A DNA stretch of 64,000 nt, taken from Deltaproteobacteria bacterium. Its GTDB lineage: Bacteria; Desulfobacterota; Desulfobaccia; Desulfobaccales; 0-14-0-80-60-11. Location: NCBI GenBank assembly GCA_016208235.1, contig JACQYN010000118.1:11891-75890 (forward strand). Reading direction: 5' to 3'. The translations under genes and the position numbers were made by a program. Every line of letters begins with the position of its first letter. Position 1 is the first letter of the stretch. The notes under the pieces were generated by a model. The model did no database searches and was not told where the DNA came from. It saw nothing but the letters and a program-made list of their open reading frames with translations. Below are positions 25,396-57,168 of the stretch, in pieces.

Positions 25396-25481
25396 AATTC
25401 CTTGGTGGCACAGGCTTCCAGCCTGTGCATGTAGGTTTTGCACCGTTACACCTATAAGGCGGGCGATGCCCGCCCTACCTA

Positions 25482-26318
25482 TTAAATCGGTTCTATATTC
25501 AATTTATATTTTGTTTCATCAATTATGGCCTGATATAAAACTATTTTTGTAGGATATCTTGAAACCCATTCCATTATCTTTTGCTTATTTTCTGGAGAAA
25601 TTAAAGCACCAAAAATTACGCCGGTTAATATCTCAGGTCTGAAATGTCGTATTCCTGGGCCTCCTTCCCGTTCAGTTTTTATTACCCTCCATTCTTCCTC
25701 ATATTCCCAATGATTTGATTTTGTTAAAAGAGCCTTCTTATATTCTGTTGGTTGATCTGATGCCATCACAAATGCCATCACATTTACAATGGGACGTTCC
25801 TCGCTATAAATAACTTTTAGTGCCTGTCCAAATAATATCATTCCACCAATCCTGGCATCAAGGATTGGGTCAAATTCTATACACAATCCCTTATGCCCAC
25901 TTGAATAATGAGACCACATCAGTATATCATCTTTCTTCTCTGAAAGACAATAAAGACCTGTTGTTTCTAAAAACCTTTCATATGCATTATCAATATGTTC
26001 TGGTCTATCCCTTAATATTCTATTATAATCTCTCATTAGTGCTTTACGAGCCTTTCTGTTATTACATGGCATCATATTCCGCACCCTTGCTCTAATAAAC
26101 TGCTGTCTTTTAAGTCCACTGTTATAAACCGTAAGTTTCGGTCGACATTCAAAGGGGTCGTTAAAATCTATTGGCTTTGGTAAGAAGATTTCTCTTTTTG
26201 TAAATATTCCCTCAAGTTCTTGAGATTCCATTGTACGGTATCTATATAGTTTCCTGATTTGACATAATTCAGGAGTTTTCAACAATTCCTTGATTTGATC
26301 TTCTCTTGTTGTGCTCAT
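25482..26318 (-). CDS. DUF2971-family protein
   Basis: 278 aa in a clearly low-GC segment. DFNDPFE and MWSHYSSGHKGLCIEF motifs characteristic of DUF2971 as I recall it. Confidence 0.7.
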   Translation of the reverse strand: MSTTREDQIKELLKTPELCQIRKLYRYRTMESQELEGIFTKREIFLPKPIDFNDPFECRPKLTVYNSGLKRQQFIRARVRNMMPCNNRKARKALMRDYNRILRDRPEHIDNAYERFLETTGLYCLSEKKDDILMWSHYSSGHKGLCIEFDPILDARIGGMILFGQALKVIYSEERPIVNVMAFVMASDQPTEYKKALLTKSNHWEYEEEWRVIKTEREGGPGIRHFRPEILTGVIFGALISPENKQKIMEWVSRYPTKIVLYQAIIDETKYKLNIEPI

Positions 26319-26454: not shown

Positions 26455-26568
26455 TTCCCCCTCCCTTGAGGGGAGGGGGTTAGGGGGAGGGTGGTGGCGA
26501 CTATGGGCAACAAGGGTTCAAAGACGCCACCCCCTCCCTAACCCTCCCCCCTCAAGGGGGAGGGAAAA
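26455..26568. repeat. 114-bp GC-rich palindrome (CCCCTCCC-TTGA-GGGGAGGG ... GGTGGCG / CGCCACC ...)
   Basis: Arms at 26455-26500 and 26523-26568. The right arm differs from the DUF559-cassette terminal repeat at 1 of 40 positions by hand alignment. Confidence 0.9.
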
Positions 26569-26613: not shown

Positions 26614-27315
26614 TTAAGGGCATGATCGAAAAACATTATTCAAATAATTGATAATCTCCTCCGGCCGGTTGGTGCAGATGGCTTCCAGGTTCATACTCAG
26701 GTAAGGTTCCAGGGCTGCGGGATCGTCGATATTCCAGACGATGACCTTAAGCCCTTGCTGATGGGCGAGATCGGCCAGTTCCCGATTGACGTAACGATAG
26801 TTCAGGACCAGGGTGTCGGTGAGCGCGGCCCGGGCCAGGCCCCCGGGGTCGGCGGGGCAGCCCACCATGAGCGCGCCGGTGCGGAGCCTGGGTTCCTCTT
26901 CCTTAAGGGCCTTGACAGCCGGGTGCCAGAAAGAGATGGCGCGAACGTCCTCGAAAAGCAGGCGTTCCCGGCACAGGCGCAGGAGCGCGGGCGCGGCCTC
27001 AGGTTGTTTCAGTTCCACCAGCAGTTGCCCCCGGCCCCGGACCAGTTCCACCACTTCTTCCAGGGCGGGGATGCGCTCGCCTTGGCCCGTATCGAGTCTT
27101 TGCAGTTCCGCCAGGGTAAAGTCTTTCACCCAGCCCCGGCCATTGGTGGTGCGGTCCACGGTCTCATCGTGGATCACCGCTAAACGGCCATCTTTGGTCA
27201 TTTGCACGTCCAGCTCTACCGCGGCCGCGCCCGCGTCCAGGGCCCGCCGGAAGGAGCGCAGGGTGTTTTCCGGCTCAGACGCGGCCGCGCCCCGATGACC
27301 TATGATATTAACCAT
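26614..27315 (-). CDS. ugpQ: glycerophosphodiester phosphodiesterase
   Basis: IIGHRGAAASEPENTLRSF, ELDVQMTKDG and VIHDETVDRTT motifs of the GDPD family. Confidence 0.9.
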   Translation of the reverse strand: MVNIIGHRGAAASEPENTLRSFRRALDAGAAAVELDVQMTKDGRLAVIHDETVDRTTNGRGWVKDFTLAELQRLDTGQGERIPALEEVVELVRGRGQLLVELKQPEAAPALLRLCRERLLFEDVRAISFWHPAVKALKEEEPRLRTGALMVGCPADPGGLARAALTDTLVLNYRYVNRELADLAHQQGLKVIVWNIDDPAALEPYLSMNLEAICTNRPEEIINYLNNVFRSCP

Positions 27316-40335: not shown

Positions 40336-40444
40336 TTACTCCCTCCCCCTTGATGGGGGAGGGCTGGGGTGGGGGTGAAATTTCTGGCAACTGCGCCCGC
40401 TTATCCCCCTCCCCCCAACCCCCTCCCACCAGGGGAGGGGGAGT
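40336..40444. repeat. diverged copy of the GC-rich palindrome family, inside the mraY-murD spacer
   Basis: ttactccctcccccttgatgggggagggctggggtgggggtgaaa ... tccccctccccccaaccccctcccaccaggggagggggagt. The same variant arm occurs at 57011-57055. Confidence 0.85.
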
Positions 40445-43200: not shown

Positions 43201-44277
43201 ATGGACCTAAAGATCGTCATCGCCGGCGGCGGCACCGGGGGGCATCTCTTTCCGGGGATTGCTGTGGCCCAGGAGTTCCAGTCCTCCCGGGGTGCGGCGG
43301 TGACTTTCCTCACGTCCCCCAAATCAGTGACCGCCCAGATCCTGGAACGCTACGGCTTTCCCTGGGAGGCCATCGCCAGCCGGGCTTTGAAGGGACAGGG
43401 GTGGTGGAGCCGGGTCCGCACCCTGTGCGGCCTGCCGGGGAGCGTGCTGGAGGCCAGAGCCCGGCTCAAGGCCTTGGCTCCCCAACTGGTTCTGGGCATG
43501 GGGGGTTATGCCTCCGGCCCGGTGGGGGCGGCCGCGTATCTGTTGGGCATTCCTTTGGCGATCCATGAACAGAACGCCATTCCCGGGGTGGCCAACCGCT
43601 GGCTGGCCAAATTGGCGAGCCGGGTATTTTTGTCTTTCCCGGATACTTCCGGCTATTTTCCTCGGGACCGGGCGGTGTGGACCGGGAACCCCATCCGCCC
43701 CGAATTTTTCGAGCTGCGCCCGGAACGGCCCGCCGCGCCCTTTACGGTGCTCCTCATGGGGGGAAGCCAGGGAGCGCACAGTCTCAATATGGCGGCTTTG
43801 GCGGCGTTGCCCTTGCTTGCGGATTTAAAAGAAAAGATTTCTTTCCTCCACATCACTGGCGAACAGGACCGGGAAGAGGTGGCCGGGGGTTACGAAAAAG
43901 CCGGTTTTGCCGCGCAAGTTGCGGCTTTCACCCCGGAGGTGGCCGCGTGGATGGGCCGGGCCCACCTGGTGGTCTGCCGGGCCGGGGCCTCCACCCTGGC
44001 GGAGCTCACTGCGATGGGCCGGGCTGCGATGCTGGTCCCCTTCCCTTTTGCGGCCAACAATCATCAGGAGTTTAACGCCCGTTTCCTGGCGGATGCGGGC
44101 GCTGCGGAATTAATTTTGAATAAAGATTTTACCGGGGAGATTTTGGCTGATAAGATAAGACATCTCATATCGCGCCCCGATTCATTGATGAGCATGGAGA
44201 CCGCCAGCCGCTCCCTGGCCAAGCCGGACGCAGCCAAAGAGATTGTCCAGGGGTGTATGGAATTGATTGAAATGTAG
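43201..44277 (+). CDS. murG: UDP-GlcNAc:lipid I GlcNAc transferase
   Basis: IAGGGTGGHLFPGIAVA, GGSQGA and RAGASTLAEL motifs. Confidence 0.95.
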   Translation: MDLKIVIAGGGTGGHLFPGIAVAQEFQSSRGAAVTFLTSPKSVTAQILERYGFPWEAIASRALKGQGWWSRVRTLCGLPGSVLEARARLKALAPQLVLGMGGYASGPVGAAAYLLGIPLAIHEQNAIPGVANRWLAKLASRVFLSFPDTSGYFPRDRAVWTGNPIRPEFFELRPERPAAPFTVLLMGGSQGAHSLNMAALAALPLLADLKEKISFLHITGEQDREEVAGGYEKAGFAAQVAAFTPEVAAWMGRAHLVVCRAGASTLAELTAMGRAAMLVPFPFAANNHQEFNARFLADAGAAELILNKDFTGEILADKIRHLISRPDSLMSMETASRSLAKPDAAKEIVQGCMELIEM

Positions 44278-44353
44278 GGAGGGCACGGCCCGCAGATAAT
44301 GCGTGGCTGCATCACCTTTTGAAAGGCTGGGAACTGTTTGGAACGTACAAACC

Positions 44354-44900
44354 TACGCCACCCCCACCCTAACCCTCCCCCCTCAAGGGGGAGGGGATAG
44401 ATCGCTGGATTTTTGGGGGGTTAGTAGATATGCATGACCTTGTCAGTCTTTCCAGAAATCTGAGAAAAAATCAGACTGATGCGGAAAATCTATTATGGCG
44501 GCATCTGCGGGGAAAACAATTAGAAGGATTGAGATTTAGGAGGCAACACCCCATCGGACGATACATTGTGGATTTCGTATGTCTCGAAAAACGATTGGTT
44601 CTGGAAATTGACGGCGGCCAGCATGGGATGGAAAAAGAAAAGATTAAAGATGATGAACGGGATCATTGGTTAAGGACGGAAGGTTACCAGGTATTAAGAT
44701 TTTGGAATAACGACGTCTTAACAAACCTGGAAGGCGTCATGGAAACGATACGATTAACTGCCCTCCCTAATTCTAACTGATAGATAAAGGGGCCATAAAA
44801 AAGAAAACTGCCAATAAAAGAAATGCCCCATAATACCACAGATGTCTTTGCTTTTATCCCCTCCCCCTTGAGGGGGGAGGGTTAGGGTGGGGGTGGCGTA
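44354..44900. mobile_element. 547-bp cassette: DUF559 gene bounded by ~46-bp perfect inverted repeats of the GC-rich palindrome family
   Basis: Left TACGCCACCCCCACCCTAACCCTCCCCCCTCAAGGGGGAGGGGATA (44354-44399) equals the reverse complement of 44855-44900 by hand comparison. The interior is low GC. Confidence 0.7.
44430..44780 (+). CDS. DUF559 (Vsr-like endonuclease fold) protein
   Basis: 116 aa, low GC. LRKNQTDAENLLWRHLR..FRRQHPIGRYIVDF..LVLEIDGGQH..D..RD.WL...GY.VLRFWNNDV matches the DUF559 pattern. Confidence 0.85.
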   Translation: MHDLVSLSRNLRKNQTDAENLLWRHLRGKQLEGLRFRRQHPIGRYIVDFVCLEKRLVLEIDGGQHGMEKEKIKDDERDHWLRTEGYQVLRFWNNDVLTNLEGVMETIRLTALPNSN

Positions 44901-45374
44901 TTGAAGGTTGAGAAAAGTTCTCGGCATTCCAAAATCACAGGTAACTTCGCAGAAGGTCTTATTCTATATTGGCTTTCAAAGTATGGTTTCGAGCGTGCTT
45001 TGGTAGACCATGTCGGTGTAGACATCATAGCACGGAACCCGCTGACCCAAGAACTTATGGGTATATCGGTGAAGTCAAGATCAAGGAGTACCGGCAAAGA
45101 AGGACAATATGTGCATATACCAAACGATCATTTCGAAAAAATCGAAGCGGCATGTCGTGCCTTCGCCTGTGTTCCCTACATCGCAGTGGTGGTCGATGAA
45201 AGCAGTGATATCCATGCCTTTTTAACGCCTATGGCCCATTTTTTAACTTTGTTCCCTCGTCGGGAAACGTCCGCGGGTTGGAAAATGAACCGGACGTGGC
45301 TTGATCATTATGAAAAAGATCCGGAGATAAAGTACTTTCATTTCAGCCATAGGACTATTAATTGGTGGAAGTAG
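44901..45374 (+). CDS. hypothetical protein, possible PD-(D/E)xK nuclease fold (DUF4365-like)
   Basis: 157 aa, low GC, TTG start abutting the right inverted repeat. GNFAEGLILYWLSKYGF..VDHVGVDIIAR..GISVKSRS resembles the D...(D/E)xK core of restriction-endonuclease-like folds. Weak call. Confidence 0.45.
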   Translation: MKVEKSSRHSKITGNFAEGLILYWLSKYGFERALVDHVGVDIIARNPLTQELMGISVKSRSRSTGKEGQYVHIPNDHFEKIEAACRAFACVPYIAVVVDESSDIHAFLTPMAHFLTLFPRRETSAGWKMNRTWLDHYEKDPEIKYFHFSHRTINWWK

Positions 45375-45428
45375 CTTAACAAGAAGATCCAGTATGTTAG
45401 ATTCACACTGCGCACCTGAACTTGAGTT

Positions 45429-46802
45429 ATGGTGAAAAAAACCTACCACTTCATCGGCGTCGGCGGGATCGGCATGAGCGGGTTGGCCGAGATCTTGGTG
45501 CGGCGCGGGCAGCGGGTTAGCGGCTCCGATCTGGCGGCCAATGCCATCACCGCGCGGCTGGAGACCCTGGGGGTCCGGTTTCGTCAGGGCCATCAGCCGG
45601 AGCACCTGGGGGAGGCCGAAGTGGTAGTCCACTCCACCGCGGTGAAGGAAGACAACCCGGAGCTGGCCGCGGCCCGGGCTAAGGGCCTCACGGTTCTGCG
45701 CCGGGGGGAGATGCTGGCCCGCTTGATGGTCGGCCATTTCCAGATCGCGGTCACCGGCGCGCACGGCAAGACCTCTACCACCGCCATGGTGGCCTCCATT
45801 CTTAGGGCCGGGGGCCTGGACCCCACGGTGTTGGTGGGCGCCTTGTGGGACAGCCTGGGCTCCAACGCGGTCCTGGGCCGGGGGGAATTTTTTGTAACCG
45901 AGGCGGATGAAAGCGACGGCTCCTTTGCTTATCTTCAGCCCCAGATCACGGTGATCACCAACCTGGACCGGGAGCACCTGGATTATTACCGGGATCTGGC
46001 CCATATCCAGGAGGTCTTTGCCCGTTACCTGGCGGAACTCCCGCCGGGCTCCCGGGTGGTGGCCTGGCGGGACGACCCCCATTTGGCTCCTGTTCTCCAG
46101 GGAACGCCCCATCCCTTGGTGACCTACAGCCTTCACCCCGGTGCTGATTTCTGGGCCACGGAGATCCAAGCCCAGGAACTGGGCACCAGCTTTCATCTGT
46201 TTCATCGGGACCAAGACCTGGGGCAAGTGACTCTGCCTTTAACCGGCAAACACTACGTGCTCAACGCCATGGCCGCGTGCGCGGTGGCCCACTCCCTGGG
46301 GCTGGATTTTTCGGTGTGGCGGCAGGGGCTGAAAGAATTGGGGCAGATTCACCGGCGCTGCCAGCCCAAGGGCGAGGCCCAAGGCATCCTGGTGATGGAC
46401 GACTACGGCCATCACCCCACGGAGATCAACACCACCATTAATGCCCTGGCCCAGGCCTTCCCGGAGCGGCGATTAGTGGTCGCTTTCCAGCCCCACCGCT
46501 ACAGCCGCACCCAGGCCCTGCTGCCGGATTTTTTCCCGGTCTTCGGCCAGGCGGAAATGGTCTTTGTCACCGAGATTTACGCGGCTGGGGAGAATCGGCT
46601 TAATGGGGTCACGGGCCGGGCCATTTATGAAGGCATCCGCCATACCGGCCACCCCTCCGTGCATTTCGTGGGGGAAAAAGCCGCGACCGCGGACATTATC
46701 CTGGACCACCTACTCCCCGGGGACCTGGTCCTCACCCTGGGCGCGGGCGACATCTGGAAAACCGGGGAAGAGTTATTGGCGCGGCTGGCGGGAGAAAAGT
46801 AA
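45429..46802 (+). CDS. murC: UDP-MurNAc:L-Ala ligase
   Basis: HFIGVGGIGMSGLAEIL, VTGAHGKTSTT and DDYGHHPTEI motifs. Confidence 0.95.
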   Translation: MVKKTYHFIGVGGIGMSGLAEILVRRGQRVSGSDLAANAITARLETLGVRFRQGHQPEHLGEAEVVVHSTAVKEDNPELAAARAKGLTVLRRGEMLARLMVGHFQIAVTGAHGKTSTTAMVASILRAGGLDPTVLVGALWDSLGSNAVLGRGEFFVTEADESDGSFAYLQPQITVITNLDREHLDYYRDLAHIQEVFARYLAELPPGSRVVAWRDDPHLAPVLQGTPHPLVTYSLHPGADFWATEIQAQELGTSFHLFHRDQDLGQVTLPLTGKHYVLNAMAACAVAHSLGLDFSVWRQGLKELGQIHRRCQPKGEAQGILVMDDYGHHPTEINTTINALAQAFPERRLVVAFQPHRYSRTQALLPDFFPVFGQAEMVFVTEIYAAGENRLNGVTGRAIYEGIRHTGHPSVHFVGEKAATADIILDHLLPGDLVLTLGAGDIWKTGEELLARLAGEK

Positions 46803-54849: not shown

Positions 54850-55010
54850 TTTAAGAGAAAAGCGGGGGAAGGTGGAGCAAGCGCCCTCGCCTGCTCAATA
54901 ACAGCCGGGCGCCGCTGTTCCCCATTTACTCCCCTCCCCATCCCCTGTATGGGGTTGGGGGAGGGGGCAGGGGCCTAAGGCGGCTGGCCTCCTCCCCCCA
55001 GAACCCAAAC

Positions 55011-56954: not shown

Positions 56955-57168
56955 TTAAAAAACCTGGCAAGGGGTTGGGGGAGGGGGATAATTGGCGCTG
57001 TTCCCAAAAATTTCACCCCCACCCCAGCCCTCCCCCCTCAAGGGGGAGGGAGTAAGTGCCTTAAAACTAAATAAATTTACTCCAGTGGCGGCACACGGTA
57101 ATAGGCAACTGATAGGGACCGACAGAGAATATGTGTTTCCGGGAAAAGTTGGAGTACCGCTGCCGCCA

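What the first reader, a model, noticed from the sequence alone, without database searches (positions are those of the whole stretch)
44354..44900. DUF559 endonuclease-fold gene bracketed by perfect ~46-bp inverted copies of a dispersed palindromic repeat (REPtron-like cassette)
Seen directly: 44354-44399 (TACGCCACCCCCACCCTAACCCTCCCCCCTCAAGGGGGAGGGGATA) is identical to the reverse complement of 44855-44900 by hand comparison. These two repeats enclose only the 116-aa DUF559 ORF. The same sequence family recurs as short solo palindromes at 26455-26568 (1 mismatch in 40 against the cassette end). Diverged copies occur at 40336-40444, 56971-57055 and 54925-54985. In the solo copies the two arms are joined with the ...GGTGGCG / CGCCACC... 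ends facing each other. That means the outer termini of the cassette sit side by side across a ~22-nt loop, as expected for an empty doublet or an end-to-end junction. The cassette interior is visibly AT-rich, while its ends and the host DNA are GC-rich. Inference: this resembles the REPtron arrangement, in which a RAYT gene is flanked by inverted REP sequences, but with a Vsr-like DUF559 nuclease in place of a Y1 transposase. DUF559 proteins have no established function. A role as the nuclease that propagates or maintains this repeat family would be new.
Basis: partly seen in the sequence, partly recalled or inferred. Interest (0 to 1): 0.8.

Follow-up and report, generated by a model that had tools for sequence, protein, structure and literature searches.

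The report
DUF559 nuclease gene bracketed by BoxC repeats
A small Vsr-like nuclease gene of unknown function (DUF559/YcjD family) sits between two perfect inverted copies of a long-known but unexplained bacterial repeat (BoxC / "triplex motif"), and comparison with about 170 other loci shows that this gene-plus-repeat pairing recurs across bacterial phyla, so the nuclease becomes the first testable candidate partner for the repeat.

Summary
A perfect 46-nt inverted repeat (44354-44399 / 44855-44900) encloses only a 116-aa DUF559 ORF between murG and murC.

The repeat is not new. It is the BoxC / PIT / TM (intrastrand triplex motif) / HPGQ element, known since the 1990s, with no known function or mobilising gene.

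What appears undescribed is the link to DUF559:
- In 80 DUF559 loci from many phyla, TM units are 50-fold enriched within 150 nt of the gene. E. coli ycjD shows the same pairing.
- At the murG-murC junction of 63 relatives, 19 of 19 DUF559-positive junctions carry TM units, against 4 of 44 DUF559-negative ones.
- In 22 relatives the same slot holds a true REPtron (RAYT plus GTAG REPs), never together with DUF559.

The cassette is old and vertically inherited: dS matches murG, dN/dS is 0.07-0.21, and the arms stay about 95-100% conserved while synonymous sites saturate.

Best reading: a RAYT/REPIN-like nuclease-repeat partnership built on a PD-(D/E)xK nuclease. The association is strong. The mechanism is inferred. 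E. coli copy-number data are confounded by phylogroup.

The parts
44273..44295 (+). Decayed GTAG-type REP copy (TGTAGGGAGGGCACGGCCCGCAG). Its TAG is the murG stop codon. It is the left boundary of the island inserted between murG and murC.
   Evidence: Read and matched by pattern. Intact homologues (AATGTAGGGTGGGCACTGCCCACC) flank a RAYT gene, or the DUF559 cassette, at the same position in relatives.
44354..44399 (+). Left arm, a BoxC/TM unit in the 'C-tail then hairpin' orientation. C-tail CCCCCACCC 44361-44369, linker TAA 44370-44372, C-stem 44373-44381, loop 44382-44386, G-stem 44387-44395.
   Evidence: Perfect inverted repeat of the right arm. 9-bp hairpin at -11.7 kcal/mol as ssDNA. 42-46 of 46 nt conserved in the close orthologous loci L002-L004 and L097. 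Same block structure as E. coli BoxC/TMECO (PMC4666352).
44430..44780 (+). DUF559 (YcjD-family, Vsr-like PD-(D/E)xK) ORF of 116 aa, co-directional with murG and murC.
   Evidence: Pfam PF04480 at E 5.7e-41. NCBIfam PRK09767 (YcjD) at 107 bits. PDB 3HRL at E 3e-24 and weak similarity to I-Bth0305I, 3R3P. dN/dS 0.07-0.21 against orthologues. Invariant D48, E59, D61 and H65 in 20 homologues.
44855..44900 (+). Right arm, a BoxC/TM unit in the 'hairpin then G-tail' orientation. C-stem 44859-44867, loop 44868-44872, G-stem 44873-44881, linker TTA 44882-44884, G-tail GGGTGGGGG 44885-44893. The tail is the mirror image of the G-stem, with T opposite A.
   Evidence: 44-45 of 46 nt matched in orthologues whose synonymous sites are saturated or nearly so (L091, L124, L144). 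Mirror covariation of stem and tail in 194 distinct units. Homology with relatives ends exactly at 44900.
26455..26568 (.). Solo inverted TM doublet (hairpin-tail, 25-nt loop, tail-hairpin) in intergenic DNA.
   Evidence: Folds as a 114-nt hairpin, z = -6.9. Lies between ORFs 25482-26318 and 26614-27315.
40336..40444 (.). Solo inverted TM doublet of a second subfamily (linker CTG, tail ending GGGTGAAATTT), upstream of murD. The loop keeps a short match to the 3' end of a DUF559b-type gene.
   Evidence: Alignment to the L115 element: 42/45 on the left unit, and CAACTGC...GCTTA in the loop (suggestive only).
56971..57055 (.). Partial doublet of the same subfamily. The right unit is complete (57014-57050) and the left unit is truncated.
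   Evidence: 91% identical to 40336-40415 in reverse orientation.
44901..45374 (+). Neighbouring 157-aa ORF in the variable 'slot 2' between the right arm and murC. It is not a constant partner of DUF559.
   Evidence: No family hit. 967 homologues, some labelled 'Holliday junction resolvase-like'. They are solitary in other genomes. Slot 2 holds unrelated genes in relatives.

Best explanation
The cassette is a long-resident DUF559 (YcjD-type, Vsr-like PD-(D/E)xK) nuclease gene, kept by purifying selection, together with two inverted copies of the BoxC/PIT/TM intrastrand-triplex motif. Gene and repeat form one evolutionary unit. The dispersed single and paired TM copies in the same genome belong to the same system. 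In architecture and evolutionary behaviour it parallels a RAYT gene with its REP/REPIN population.

Proposed working, step by step:
1. Shown: each unit is C-block, loop, G-block, 3-nt linker, then a mirror G-block.
2. Shown in vitro by others: as single-stranded DNA the unit folds into a hairpin or triplex.
3. Inferred: the DUF559 protein recognises the folded unit or the inverted pair. This would happen when the DNA is transiently single-stranded or extruded.
4. Inferred: it nicks near the hairpin/tail junction.
5. Inferred: nick-induced fork breakage and recombinational repair or template switching, using other TM copies, then copy, delete or replace TM units and adjacent DNA.

Step 5 would maintain the repeat population. 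It would also account for the hypervariable DNA next to the cassette and the known instability around TM sites. The chemistry must differ from RAYT, because a PD-(D/E)xK hydrolase forms no covalent HUH/tyrosine intermediate.
For: Tight pairing across phyla:
- In 69% of the 85 DUF559 genes tested (80 cross-phylum genome loci plus the window's orthologues L002-L005), the best bracketing inverted repeat beats the 99th percentile of random positions in the same loci.
- The commonest arrangement is a hairpin-tail unit ending 8-40 nt before the start codon and a tail-hairpin unit starting -7 to +16 nt from the stop.
- TM units occur at 5.4 per kb within 150 nt of the gene against 0.107 per kb elsewhere, p = 3e-142.
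- Database DUF559 proteins carry translated repeat sequence in their N- or C-terminal extensions.
- E. coli ycjD ends inside one unit and has another about 190 nt downstream.

Same locus, presence or absence:
- DUF559-positive junctions have TM in 19 of 19 cases. DUF559-negative junctions have TM in 4 of 44. Fisher p = 1.4e-12.

Selection:
- dN/dS is 0.07-0.21.
- The aligned parts of the arms are about 95-100% identical, while dS runs from 0.46 to saturation.
- dS of DUF559 is about equal to dS of murG.

The repeat population matches the resident gene:
- Dispersed units resemble the local arms at 0.83, against 0.69 for arms in other genomes, p = 3e-9.

Structural constraint:
- 94% of stem/tail mirror positions are triad-compatible, against a null of 0.84 +/- 0.005.
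- A stem A pairs with a tail A or T in 301 of 316 cases.

Breakpoints:
- Breakpoints fall at the G-stem/tail junction in L119 and L147, and at the end of the tail in the window.
- Duplicated 3' gene ends lie next to TM units in E. coli and Desulfosoma.

Parallel with RAYT:
- The gene is single-copy and fixed in E. coli, present in 3378 of 5426 genomes at one place each in nearly all (median 1, maximum 2).
- A RAYT flanked by REPs occupies the same slot in 22 relatives and never together with DUF559, p = 2.5e-5.

Literature:
- TM loci are unusually rearranged, and no mobility gene had been found for them (PMC4666352).
Against: - No biochemical or genetic evidence shows that any DUF559 protein binds or cuts TM DNA. 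Every mechanistic step after folding is inference.
- The E. coli correlation between ycjD and BoxC copy number follows phylogroup. ycjD-positive genomes have 11-26 places (median 17) and ycjD-negative genomes 1-12 (median 4). O157-type strains without ycjD still have about 12 copies, the same as ycjD-positive D/E-type strains with 12-13. The gene is therefore not needed for the copies to persist.
- No recent gain of a TM copy or of a DUF559 gene was caught. The same protein always lies in the same context.
- Holder et al. saw no triplex in double-stranded DNA or in vivo.
- The counts from relatives are not phylogenetically independent.
- The survey covers only the YcjD-like short DUF559 subfamily (51-87% identity to this protein).
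Confidence: 0.5

Rival explanations
1. Free-standing homing-type selfish gene. The DUF559 nuclease cuts 'empty' TM inverted doublets, and its gene is copied into the loop by recombinational repair. The solos are empty targets or landing pads rather than products of the enzyme.
For: - In the majority geometry the ORF fills the space between the two tails exactly, where solos have a 25-nt loop.
- The nearest characterised relative by sequence, I-Bth0305I, is a homing endonuclease (PMC3424549).
- Some genomes hold tandem or multiple DUF559 copies (L030, L091, L011, L034, and P0121 with three domains).
- Protein identity of 51-67% across phyla suggests horizontal spread.
Against: - The gene is single-copy and positionally fixed in E. 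coli (one place per genome in nearly all 3378 genomes) and in the lineages sampled.
- dS equals that of the flanking murG, and dN/dS is 0.07-0.21. That fits long vertical residence under selection, not the homing cycle of invasion and decay.
- Relatives lacking DUF559 at the murG-murC site mostly have no TM there, so there was no pre-existing target.
- The gene is very rare on plasmids and phages.
Confidence: 0.15
2. Host 'guardian' nuclease. DUF559 is a repair or structure-processing endonuclease that removes hairpin or triplex obstacles at TM sites. It is retained because TMs are harmful, and the TMs spread by some other means. The flanking units serve as autoregulatory binding sites.
For: - Strong purifying selection and vertical inheritance.
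- Membership of the Vsr repair-nuclease clade (PMC1189080).
- The TM folds into structures that block polymerases in vitro (PMC4666352).
- The arms are conserved as if they were protein-binding sites.
Against: - It does not explain why TM units are absent from the locus whenever the gene is absent.
- It does not explain why the ORF's stop codon and C-terminal codons lie inside a unit.
- E. coli lineages with about 12 TMs do without ycjD.
Confidence: 0.15
3. The flanking units are only the gene's own expression signals (ribosome-binding purine tract, mRNA-stabilising or terminator hairpins). The dispersed copies are unrelated in function, or are decayed relics of former DUF559 genes. DUF559 acts on some other substrate.
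For: - The G-rich tail sits where a Shine-Dalgarno sequence would be, and the 3' hairpin overlaps the stop codon.
- Solo loops keep short matches to the 3' end of a DUF559 gene.
- Remnant junctions exist where the gene has been deleted but units remain.
Against: - Copies outnumber genes by far: 23 TMECOs to 1 ycjD in K-12 (PMC4666352; single ycjD), and at least 4 sites to 1 gene in this 64-kb window.
- The arms are not predicted terminators. PIT elements showed no promoter or terminator activity (work of Maher et al. as cited in PMC4666352).
- The cassette lies inside the dcw operon upstream of murC-ftsQAZ, where an efficient terminator would be polar.
- Mirror covariation of stem and tail points to a DNA-level triplex or mirror constraint, which an RBS or terminator role does not need.
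Confidence: 0.12
4. Cargo of a REP/RAYT element. The DUF559-TM cassette sits between GTAG-type REPs because the murG-murC island is a REPtron or REPIN vehicle. Its presence here owes to RAYT/REP-mediated or homologous exchange, not to any activity of DUF559.
For: - REP copies bracket the cassette and slot 2 in L004 and L005. A REP remnant forms the murG stop codon in the window.
- RAYT and DUF559 are alternative occupants of the same REP-bounded slot.
Against: - It explains the location at this site only. It does not explain the TM bracketing of DUF559 in 80 unrelated loci where no RAYT lies nearby (one weak hit), nor E. coli ycjD.
- The window holds no RAYT gene and at most one other approximate REP-like match (25467-25479, one mismatch, within chance expectation).
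Confidence: 0.05

Closest known systems
REPtron / RAYT-REPIN systems (REP-associated tyrosine transposases with flanking REP sequences)
   Same: - A single small nuclease gene is flanked by inverted copies of a short hairpin-forming repeat.
- The repeat is also dispersed in extragenic DNA as singlets and inverted doublets.
- The gene is single-copy, vertically inherited and under purifying selection (RAYT behaviour as described in PMC5581495 and PMC3116915).
- The repeat variant matches the flanks of the resident gene.
- In relatives a real RAYT/REP unit occupies the same slot.
   Different: - The enzyme has a PD-(D/E)xK Vsr-like fold, not a HUH/Y1 fold, so ssDNA transposition through a covalent intermediate is excluded.
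- The repeat lacks the GTAG head and instead has a third, mirror G-block (triplex motif).
- No activity has been shown.
BoxC / PIT / TM (TMECO) / HPGQ repeats of E. coli and more than 260 other genomes
   Same: - The arms and solos have the defining block structure: C-block, loop, G-block, TTA or CTG linker, mirror G-block, about 37 nt.
- They are intergenic and occur partly as inverted pairs (PMC4666352, PMC5100583).
- They coincide with locally rearranged DNA.
   Different: - The published work found no associated gene or mobility function and does not mention ycjD/DUF559.
- Here the units bracket a nuclease gene and travel with it.
E. coli YcjD (PRK09767, DUF559)
   Same: - Same family: 107 bits to PRK09767, about 47% identity by tblastn.
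- Same size, about 117 aa.
- The 3' end lies inside a TM unit.
- It occupies a replaceable slot between housekeeping genes, where eefRABCD sits in other phylogroups (PMC12817139).
   Different: - The score is below the equivalog cut-off of 218 bits.
- E. coli ycjD has lost the upstream unit.
- No function is known for either protein.
Vsr very-short-patch repair endonuclease
   Same: Same superfamily clade (VSR/DUF559/DUF2726; PMC3424549). Small single-domain nicking-type nuclease fold.
   Different: - TIGR00632 scores 16.7 bits against a cut-off of 97.85.
- No adjacent C5-cytosine methyltransferase gene; the neighbours are murG, ORF157 and murC.
I-Bth0305I (EDxHD family homing endonuclease, PDB 3R3P)
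   Same: Weak sequence similarity over the catalytic core (E 0.19). It is a selfish-gene precedent for a Vsr-like nuclease.
   Different: That enzyme is encoded within a group I intron and has an extra DNA-binding domain. The gene here is free-standing, intergenic, long-resident and single-domain.
MITEs and their parent insertion sequences
   Same: The short palindromic solos look like internally deleted versions of the gene-bearing element.
   Different: No transposase, no target-site duplication seen, and no evidence of recent transposition.

Membership tests
BoxC / PIT / TM intrastrand triplex motif (for the arms and solos) | Three consecutive blocks: a pyrimidine (C-rich) block, its complementary G-rich block, then a second G-rich block that mirrors the first. 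Two short loops. About 37 nt in all. | tested here: met
   Right arm: CCCTCCCCC-TTGAG-GGGGGAGGG-TTA-GGGTGGGGG. The tail mirrors the stem with T opposite A. 94% of mirror positions are triad-compatible over 194 units. Same layout as the E. coli copy CCCCTCGCCCC-TCT-GGGGAGAGGG-TTA-GGGTGAGGGG and the TMECO description.
BoxC / PIT / TM intrastrand triplex motif (for the arms and solos) | Dispersed, intergenic, multi-copy, and sometimes as two units in inverted configuration. | tested here: met
   Five sites in 64 kb against 0 in shuffles. Solos lie between ORFs. Inverted doublets at 26455 and 40336.
BoxC / PIT / TM intrastrand triplex motif (for the arms and solos) | Forms an intrastrand triplex as single-stranded DNA. 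| not testable with these tools
   Only hairpin folding could be computed. Triplex formation was shown in vitro for the E. coli sequence by Holder et al. (PMC4666352).
REPtron / RAYT-REPIN system | The nuclease gene encodes a Y1 (HUH) IS200-like transposase. | tested here: not met
   The ORF is DUF559 / PD-(D/E)xK. There is no Y1_Tnp match and no RAYT anywhere in the window.
REPtron / RAYT-REPIN system | The gene is flanked by the repeat in inverted orientation. | tested here: met
   46-nt perfect inverted repeat here. The same holds in most of the 85 DUF559 genes tested in other loci.
REPtron / RAYT-REPIN system | The repeat is an imperfect palindrome headed by a conserved GTAG. | tested here: not met
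   TM units have no GTAG head. The true REPs at this locus in relatives do (AATGTAGGGTGGGCACTGCCCACC).
REPtron / RAYT-REPIN system | Single-copy, vertically inherited gene with a co-resident repeat population that matches its flanks. | tested here: met
   One copy in the window. One place per E. coli genome in nearly all cases (median 1, maximum 2). dS(DUF559) is about dS(murG). Dispersed units match the local arms. Whole-genome copy number for this MAG could not be counted.
REPtron / RAYT-REPIN system | The enzyme cleaves and mobilises the repeat. | not testable with these tools
   Needs biochemistry or genetics.
Vsr (very short patch repair endonuclease) | Matches the Vsr model above its cut-off, and is genetically linked to a Dcm-type cytosine methyltransferase. 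| tested here: not met
   TIGR00632 scores 16.7 bits against a cut-off of 97.85. The neighbours are murG, ORF157 and murC.
DUF559 / YcjD family (PF04480; PRK09767) | Full-length match to PF04480 above the gathering score. Conserved D...ExDGxQH...RFWN core. | tested here: met
   139 bits against a cut-off of 20.6. Invariant D48, E59, D61, G62, G63, H65, R90 and W92. 3HRL at E 3e-24. Below the YcjD equivalog cut-off (107 against 218 bits), so it is a family member, not an equivalog.
EDxHD homing endonucleases (I-Bth0305I) | Encoded inside a group I intron or intein, with the intron-less allele as target. | tested here: not met
   Free-standing intergenic ORF. Rfam gathering search of the window finds no intron. 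Sequence similarity is only E 0.19.

The most novel reading that the evidence does not exclude
YcjD-type DUF559 proteins are the missing enzyme behind the BoxC/PIT/TM triplex-motif repeats. On this reading they form a second, convergently evolved class of domesticated nuclease plus intragenomic repeat population, parallel to RAYT-REPIN. A Vsr-like PD-(D/E)xK nickase would recognise a folded hairpin or triplex, seed the spread and turnover of the repeats, and cause the genomic instability seen around them.
Probability: 0.35. Interest if true: 0.9.

Novelty: new variant of a known kind. Interest (0 to 1): 0.78.

Why it matters
Two long-standing unknowns would be tied together and become testable.

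- **The repeat.** BoxC/PIT/TM/HPGQ repeats have been known in E. coli since the 1990s and occur in hundreds of genomes. They have been studied biophysically under four names, with no origin, partner protein or function. Holder et al. state that they never found a mobility activity near them.
- **The protein family.** DUF559/YcjD is a very large family of unknown function, with 28,156 clusters at 50% identity, and it includes a gene of E. coli K-12.

If the nuclease acts on the repeat, three things follow:
1. It would be a second kind of long-term nuclease-repeat partnership besides RAYT-REPIN, with different chemistry.
2. It would explain rearrangement hot spots next to TM sites.
3. It would give a protein that reads a non-B DNA structure.

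The experiment is easy, because E. coli K-12 carries both partners.

Tried and rejected
- **Recent insertion.** Rejected. Orthologous cassettes sit at the same site at dS 0.46 to saturation, equal to murG.
- **Arms as two independent solos also present in relatives without the gene.** Rejected for most relatives: 40 of 44 DUF559-negative junctions have no TM. The 4 exceptions include junctions that look like deletion remnants (L119, L147).
- **Invertible switch.** Rejected. All DUF559 genes found at the junction are co-directional with murG.
- **Arms as intrinsic terminators or promoters.** No prediction supports this, and the cassette lies inside the dcw operon.
- **Known RNA family.** No Rfam hit in the window.
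- **Defence system.** PADLOC gives only a local DpdF-nuclease similarity.
- **Vsr/Dcm pair.** No methyltransferase nearby, and the Vsr model scores below its cut-off.
- **ORF157 as a fixed partner.** Rejected. Its homologues are solitary elsewhere and not flanked by inverted repeats.
- **Plasmid or phage vehicle.** DUF559 is very rare there: 39 of 72,556 plasmids and 3 of 50,697 phages.
- **E. coli ycjD against BoxC copy number.** A correlation exists (Mann-Whitney p = 4e-10), but I judge it confounded by phylogroup.
- **Solo loops as gene remnants.** Only short matches were found, so this is suggestive and no more.
- **GTAG REPs or RAYT in the window.** Only one decayed REP, at the murG stop (plus one approximate match within chance expectation), and no RAYT.
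- **Not run.** Structure prediction, because a solved homologue (3HRL) exists.
Full report
**1. The observation**

The sequence is as described.
- The repeat finder reports arms 44354-44399 and 44855-44900, 46 nt, 100% complementary, 455 nt apart.
- The only ORF inside is 44430-44780, 116 aa. It matches Pfam DUF559 at E 5.7e-41 and the E. coli YcjD model PRK09767 at 107 bits, below the equivalog cut-off of 218.
- The neighbours are murG (43201-44277) and murC (45429-46802). A further 157-aa ORF (44901-45374) starts directly after the right arm.
- The window comes from a Desulfobaccales-type MAG, GCA_016209115.1.
- The 23-nt core of the arm occurs at five places in the window against none in 100 shuffles.
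- The solo copies at 26455-26568, 40336-40444 and 56971-57055 are real. The copy at 54925-54985 is only loosely similar.
- The interior is 41.5% GC, against 67% in the arms and 59% in the window.

**2. What the repeat is**

Each arm has four parts: a 9-bp C/G hairpin, a 5-nt loop, a 3-nt linker (TTA), and a second G-block that mirrors the G-stem. In the right arm this reads GGGGGAGGG-TTA-GGGTGGGGG.

E. coli K-12 ycjD shows the same element. The gene ends inside CCCTCTCCC-TGAAAGAG-CGAGGGGG. About 190 nt downstream lies CCCCTCGCCCCTCTGGGGAGAGGGTTAGGGTGAGGGG.

That E. coli sequence is a known repeat with four published names:
- BoxC
- PIT, 'potential intrastrand triplex'
- TM/TMECO (Holder et al. 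2015, PMC4666352)
- HPGQ (Kaplan et al. 2016, PMC5100583)

The published facts are as follows:
- 23 copies in MG1655, five of them as inverted pairs.
- A G/C-rich motif of this type is present in more than 260 genomes.
- It forms a triplex as ssDNA in vitro but not detectably in vivo.
- It has no promoter or terminator activity.
- Flanking DNA is unusually rearranged.
- The authors explicitly found no associated mobility gene.

So the repeat family itself is already known.

Across 194 distinct units from the window and the 80 DUF559 genome loci, stem and tail co-vary by the mirror (purine-triad) rule. 94% of positions are compatible, against a permutation null of 0.84 +/- 0.005. A stem A faces a tail A or T in 301 of 316 cases. 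This is evolutionary support for a structural constraint.

**3. The link to DUF559 is general**

- Database homologues with extended N- or C-termini translate the repeat, for example ...PTLTLPPQGGGDK... and ...PSPNPSLKGGEN.
- I collected 80 DUF559 loci from a species-representative genome collection (51-67% identity). They span Desulfobacterota, Nitrospirota, Planctomycetota, Chloroflexota, Alpha-, Beta- and Gammaproteobacteria, Elusimicrobia, Spirochaetes and others.
- In 69% of the 85 DUF559 genes tested (these loci plus the window's orthologues L002-L005), the best inverted repeat bracketing the gene exceeds the 99th percentile of random same-size positions in the same loci. The arms are almost always this motif.
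- Tailed units occur at 5.4 per kb within 150 nt of the gene against 0.107 per kb in the remaining 624 kb. That is a 50-fold enrichment, p = 3e-142.
- The commonest geometry has a hairpin-tail unit ending 8-40 nt before the start codon and a tail-hairpin unit starting -7 to +16 nt from the stop. The gene therefore fills the place that the 25-nt loop occupies in the solos.
- The window and its orthologues show the opposite, minority geometry, with hairpins towards the gene. Outside this locus only L017 and L041 share it.
- Where a locus also holds dispersed units, they resemble the arms of the local DUF559 more than arms from other genomes: 0.83 against 0.69, p = 3e-9.

**4. This locus in relatives**

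Close DUF559 homologues (76-87% identity) lie at the same murG-murC site with the same arms.

I then fetched 80 metagenomic loci encoding MurG relatives. The junction proved hypervariable, from a 13-nt gene overlap (L098, L099) to 2027 nt.

| Junction class | n | With TM units |
|---|---|---|
| DUF559 present | 19 | 19 |
| DUF559 absent | 44 | 4 |

Fisher p = 1.4e-12.

- The exceptions aligned (L119, L147, and also L123) look like remnants. L119 and L147 share the left part with gene-bearing loci, and homology breaks at the G-stem/tail junction.
- In the window, homology with relatives ends exactly at the end of the right arm.
- L091 carries two DUF559 genes in the array arm-geneA-arm'-geneB-arm. 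L115 keeps geneB plus a remnant of geneA's 3' end. The window keeps geneA only. This explains the minority geometry and shows how internal deletions produce doublets of either polarity.

**5. A true REPtron in the same slot**

- In 22 relatives the position directly after murG holds a 167-182-aa Y1 transposase. This includes the closest relative, L095, with MurG 89% identical.
- The L095 protein matches Pfam Y1_Tnp at 32.9 bits and has the HLH and YIHxNP motifs.
- The gene is flanked by 31-32-nt inverted GTAG-type REPs, AATGTAGGGTGGGCACTGCCCACC, 97-100% complementary.
- Occupancy across informative junctions is mutually exclusive:

| Occupant of the slot | Junctions |
|---|---|
| DUF559 only | 22 |
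| RAYT only | 22 |
| Both | 0 |
| Neither | 25 |

One-sided Fisher p = 2.5e-5.

- REP copies still bracket the DUF559 cassette in L004 and L005. A decayed REP supplies the murG stop codon in the window at 44273-44295.
- The window has no RAYT and at most one other approximate REP-like match, within chance expectation.

**6. Age and selection**

- Against orthologues, DUF559 has dN/dS of 0.07-0.21, with dS from 0.46 to saturation.
- murG shows the same dS for the same close pairs, 0.53-0.70. The cassette has therefore co-diverged with its neighbour.
- The aligned parts of the arms stay about 95-100% identical over this range, for example 45/46 at dS about 1.7. The perfect complementarity thus reflects constraint, not recency.
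- The gene keeps GC3 of 0.39-0.54 in hosts whose murG has GC3 of 0.77-0.87. I cannot explain this.
- In E. coli, ycjD is in 3378 of 5426 complete genomes, at one place per genome in nearly all (median 1, maximum 2).
- The same metagenomic DUF559 protein always has the same neighbours.
- Close homologues are very rare on plasmids (39 of 72,556) and phages (3 of 50,697).

**7. E. coli copy numbers**

- BoxC-like matches number 1-27 per genome, median 15.
- In a spread sample of 60 genomes, 37 with ycjD have 11-26 places (median 17), and 23 without it have 1-12 (median 4). Mann-Whitney p = 4e-10.
- The pattern follows lineage. Nissle-like genomes have 1-4 and O157:H7 genomes have about 12 without ycjD, while the genomes carrying the divergent (92%-identity) ycjD allele have 12-13.
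- I therefore treat this as weak, confounded support. It also shows that copies persist without the gene.
- ycjD occupies the fabI-sapF site where other phylogroups carry eefRABCD (PMC12817139).
- K-12 has a 23-nt duplicate of the ycjD 3' end beside a TM-like remnant. Desulfosoma (L030) has tandem DUF559 copies and a duplicated 3' end plus unit.

**8. The protein**

- The closest solved structure is the uncharacterised N. gonorrhoeae protein 3HRL (E 3e-24). Similarity to the catalytic domain of the homing endonuclease I-Bth0305I is weak (E 0.19).
- The family belongs to the Vsr/DUF559/DUF2726 clade of PD-(D/E)xK nucleases (PMC1189080, PMC3424549).
- It is not Vsr. The Vsr model scores 16.7 bits against a cut-off of 97.85, and no methyltransferase gene is adjacent.
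- D48, E59, D61 and H65 are invariant in 20 homologues. Together with the low dN/dS this argues for an active enzyme. The catalytic assignment is inference.
- The family is very large: 28,156 clusters at 50% identity with E <= 1e-3.

**9. Interpretation**

*Shown:*
- the gene-repeat unit and its cross-phylum recurrence;
- co-presence of gene and repeat at one locus;
- long vertical residence under selection;
- constraint on the arms and on their mirror structure;
- rearrangement breakpoints at the units;
- replacement of, or by, a RAYT REPtron in the same slot.

*Inferred:*
- the DUF559 protein recognises the folded unit, nicks it, and through break repair maintains and spreads the repeat and destabilises adjacent DNA.

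I give about 0.5 to 'DUF559 acts on TM DNA as its partner' and about 0.35 to the stronger claim that it propagates the repeats. The rivals are a homing-type selfish gene, a guardian repair nuclease, mere expression signals, and REP-vehicle cargo. They are listed with their evidence in the rival explanations.

**10. Novelty**

Searches of the held library returned no paper linking the gene family to the repeat. I searched for DUF559 (25 papers), ycjD (17), 'intrastrand triplex' (20), BoxC/PIT terms, and the repeat sequence itself. Holder et al. state the opposite expectation. The library lacks most subscription-journal papers, so prior description cannot be excluded.

I classify the finding as a new variant of a known kind: a REPtron-like nuclease-repeat partnership with a different nuclease fold and a known but unexplained repeat.

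Noticed in passing
L095:1777-2448, L101:1843-2483, L102:3596-4234, L108:1945-2523 (relatives; same position as window 44278-44900): In 22 MurG relatives the slot directly after murG holds a RAYT (Y1_Tnp) gene flanked by 31-32-nt inverted GTAG-type REPs. This is a textbook REPtron. It is mutually exclusive with the DUF559-TM cassette: 22 junctions with DUF559 only, 22 with RAYT only, 0 with both, 25 with neither.
   Followed up: yes
window 44278-45428 and loci L095-L174: The murG-murC junction inside the dcw cluster is a hypervariable hot spot, from a 13-nt gene overlap to 2027 nt. 'Slot 2', between the cassette or RAYT and murC, carries unrelated small genes in different relatives: DUF488 plus DuOB (L125), RQC-HRDC (L109), an Mrr-like protein (L144), and 103-285-aa unknowns.
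   Followed up: partly
window 44901-45374: The 157-aa ORF abutting the right arm has no Pfam, NCBIfam, PADLOC or PDB match, but has 967 homologues at 57-91% identity. They include Vibrio, Patescibacteria and Nanoarchaeota, and some are labelled 'Holliday junction resolvase-like'. The motif GVDIIA...ISVKSRS suggests a PD-(D/E)xK nuclease. Homologues are solitary in unrelated contexts and not flanked by inverted repeats.
   Followed up: partly
window 44430-44780 and orthologues in L002-L004, L091, L097, L124, L144, L164, L165: The DUF559 gene keeps GC3 of 0.39-0.54 in hosts whose murG has GC3 of 0.77-0.87, although its dS equals that of murG. The compositional anomaly has therefore been maintained through long vertical descent. 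This is unexplained.
   Followed up: partly
window 44273-44295: A decayed GTAG-type REP overlaps the murG stop codon (ATGTAG). The REP supplies the TAG stop here and in relatives. The island therefore seems to have entered at the ancestral murG/murC overlap.
   Followed up: partly
L086 (E. coli K-12 NC_000913.3, about 1351300-1351470) and L030:6338-6405: A partial duplicate of the 3' end of the DUF559 gene lies beside a TM unit or remnant. In E. coli it is a 23-nt exact repeat, GGAGACGGTGCTGGAGAATATTC. In Desulfosoma it is a repeat of about 65 nt that includes the unit, plus a tandem second gene copy 783 nt away.
   Followed up: partly
L104, L115, L136, L145 (DUF559b-type genes): The second DUF559 subclade at this locus (60-69% identity) appears to have no ATG, GTG or TTG start between the upstream in-frame stop and the conserved N-terminus. 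In L115 its reading frame runs on through the downstream TM unit. These may be pseudogenes or may use an unusual start.
   Followed up: no
E. coli complete genomes: BoxC copy number differs sharply by lineage. Nissle-like (probably phylogroup B2) strains have 1-4, O157:H7 strains about 12, K-12-like strains 16-18, and some other strains 22-28.
   Followed up: partly
L119:3570-4105 and L147:1468-1745 against L115 and L104: In junctions that keep TM units but lack DUF559, homology with gene-bearing relatives breaks right after the G-stem (GGGGGAG|), at the hairpin/tail boundary of the unit. This is a candidate cleavage or recombination point.
   Followed up: partly
L124 and L166: In these loci MurG is only 68-70% identical to the window's, yet the ORF157 homologue is 86.6% identical and DUF559 79%. 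The island may have been exchanged between lineages, or these small genes may be under stronger constraint.
   Followed up: no
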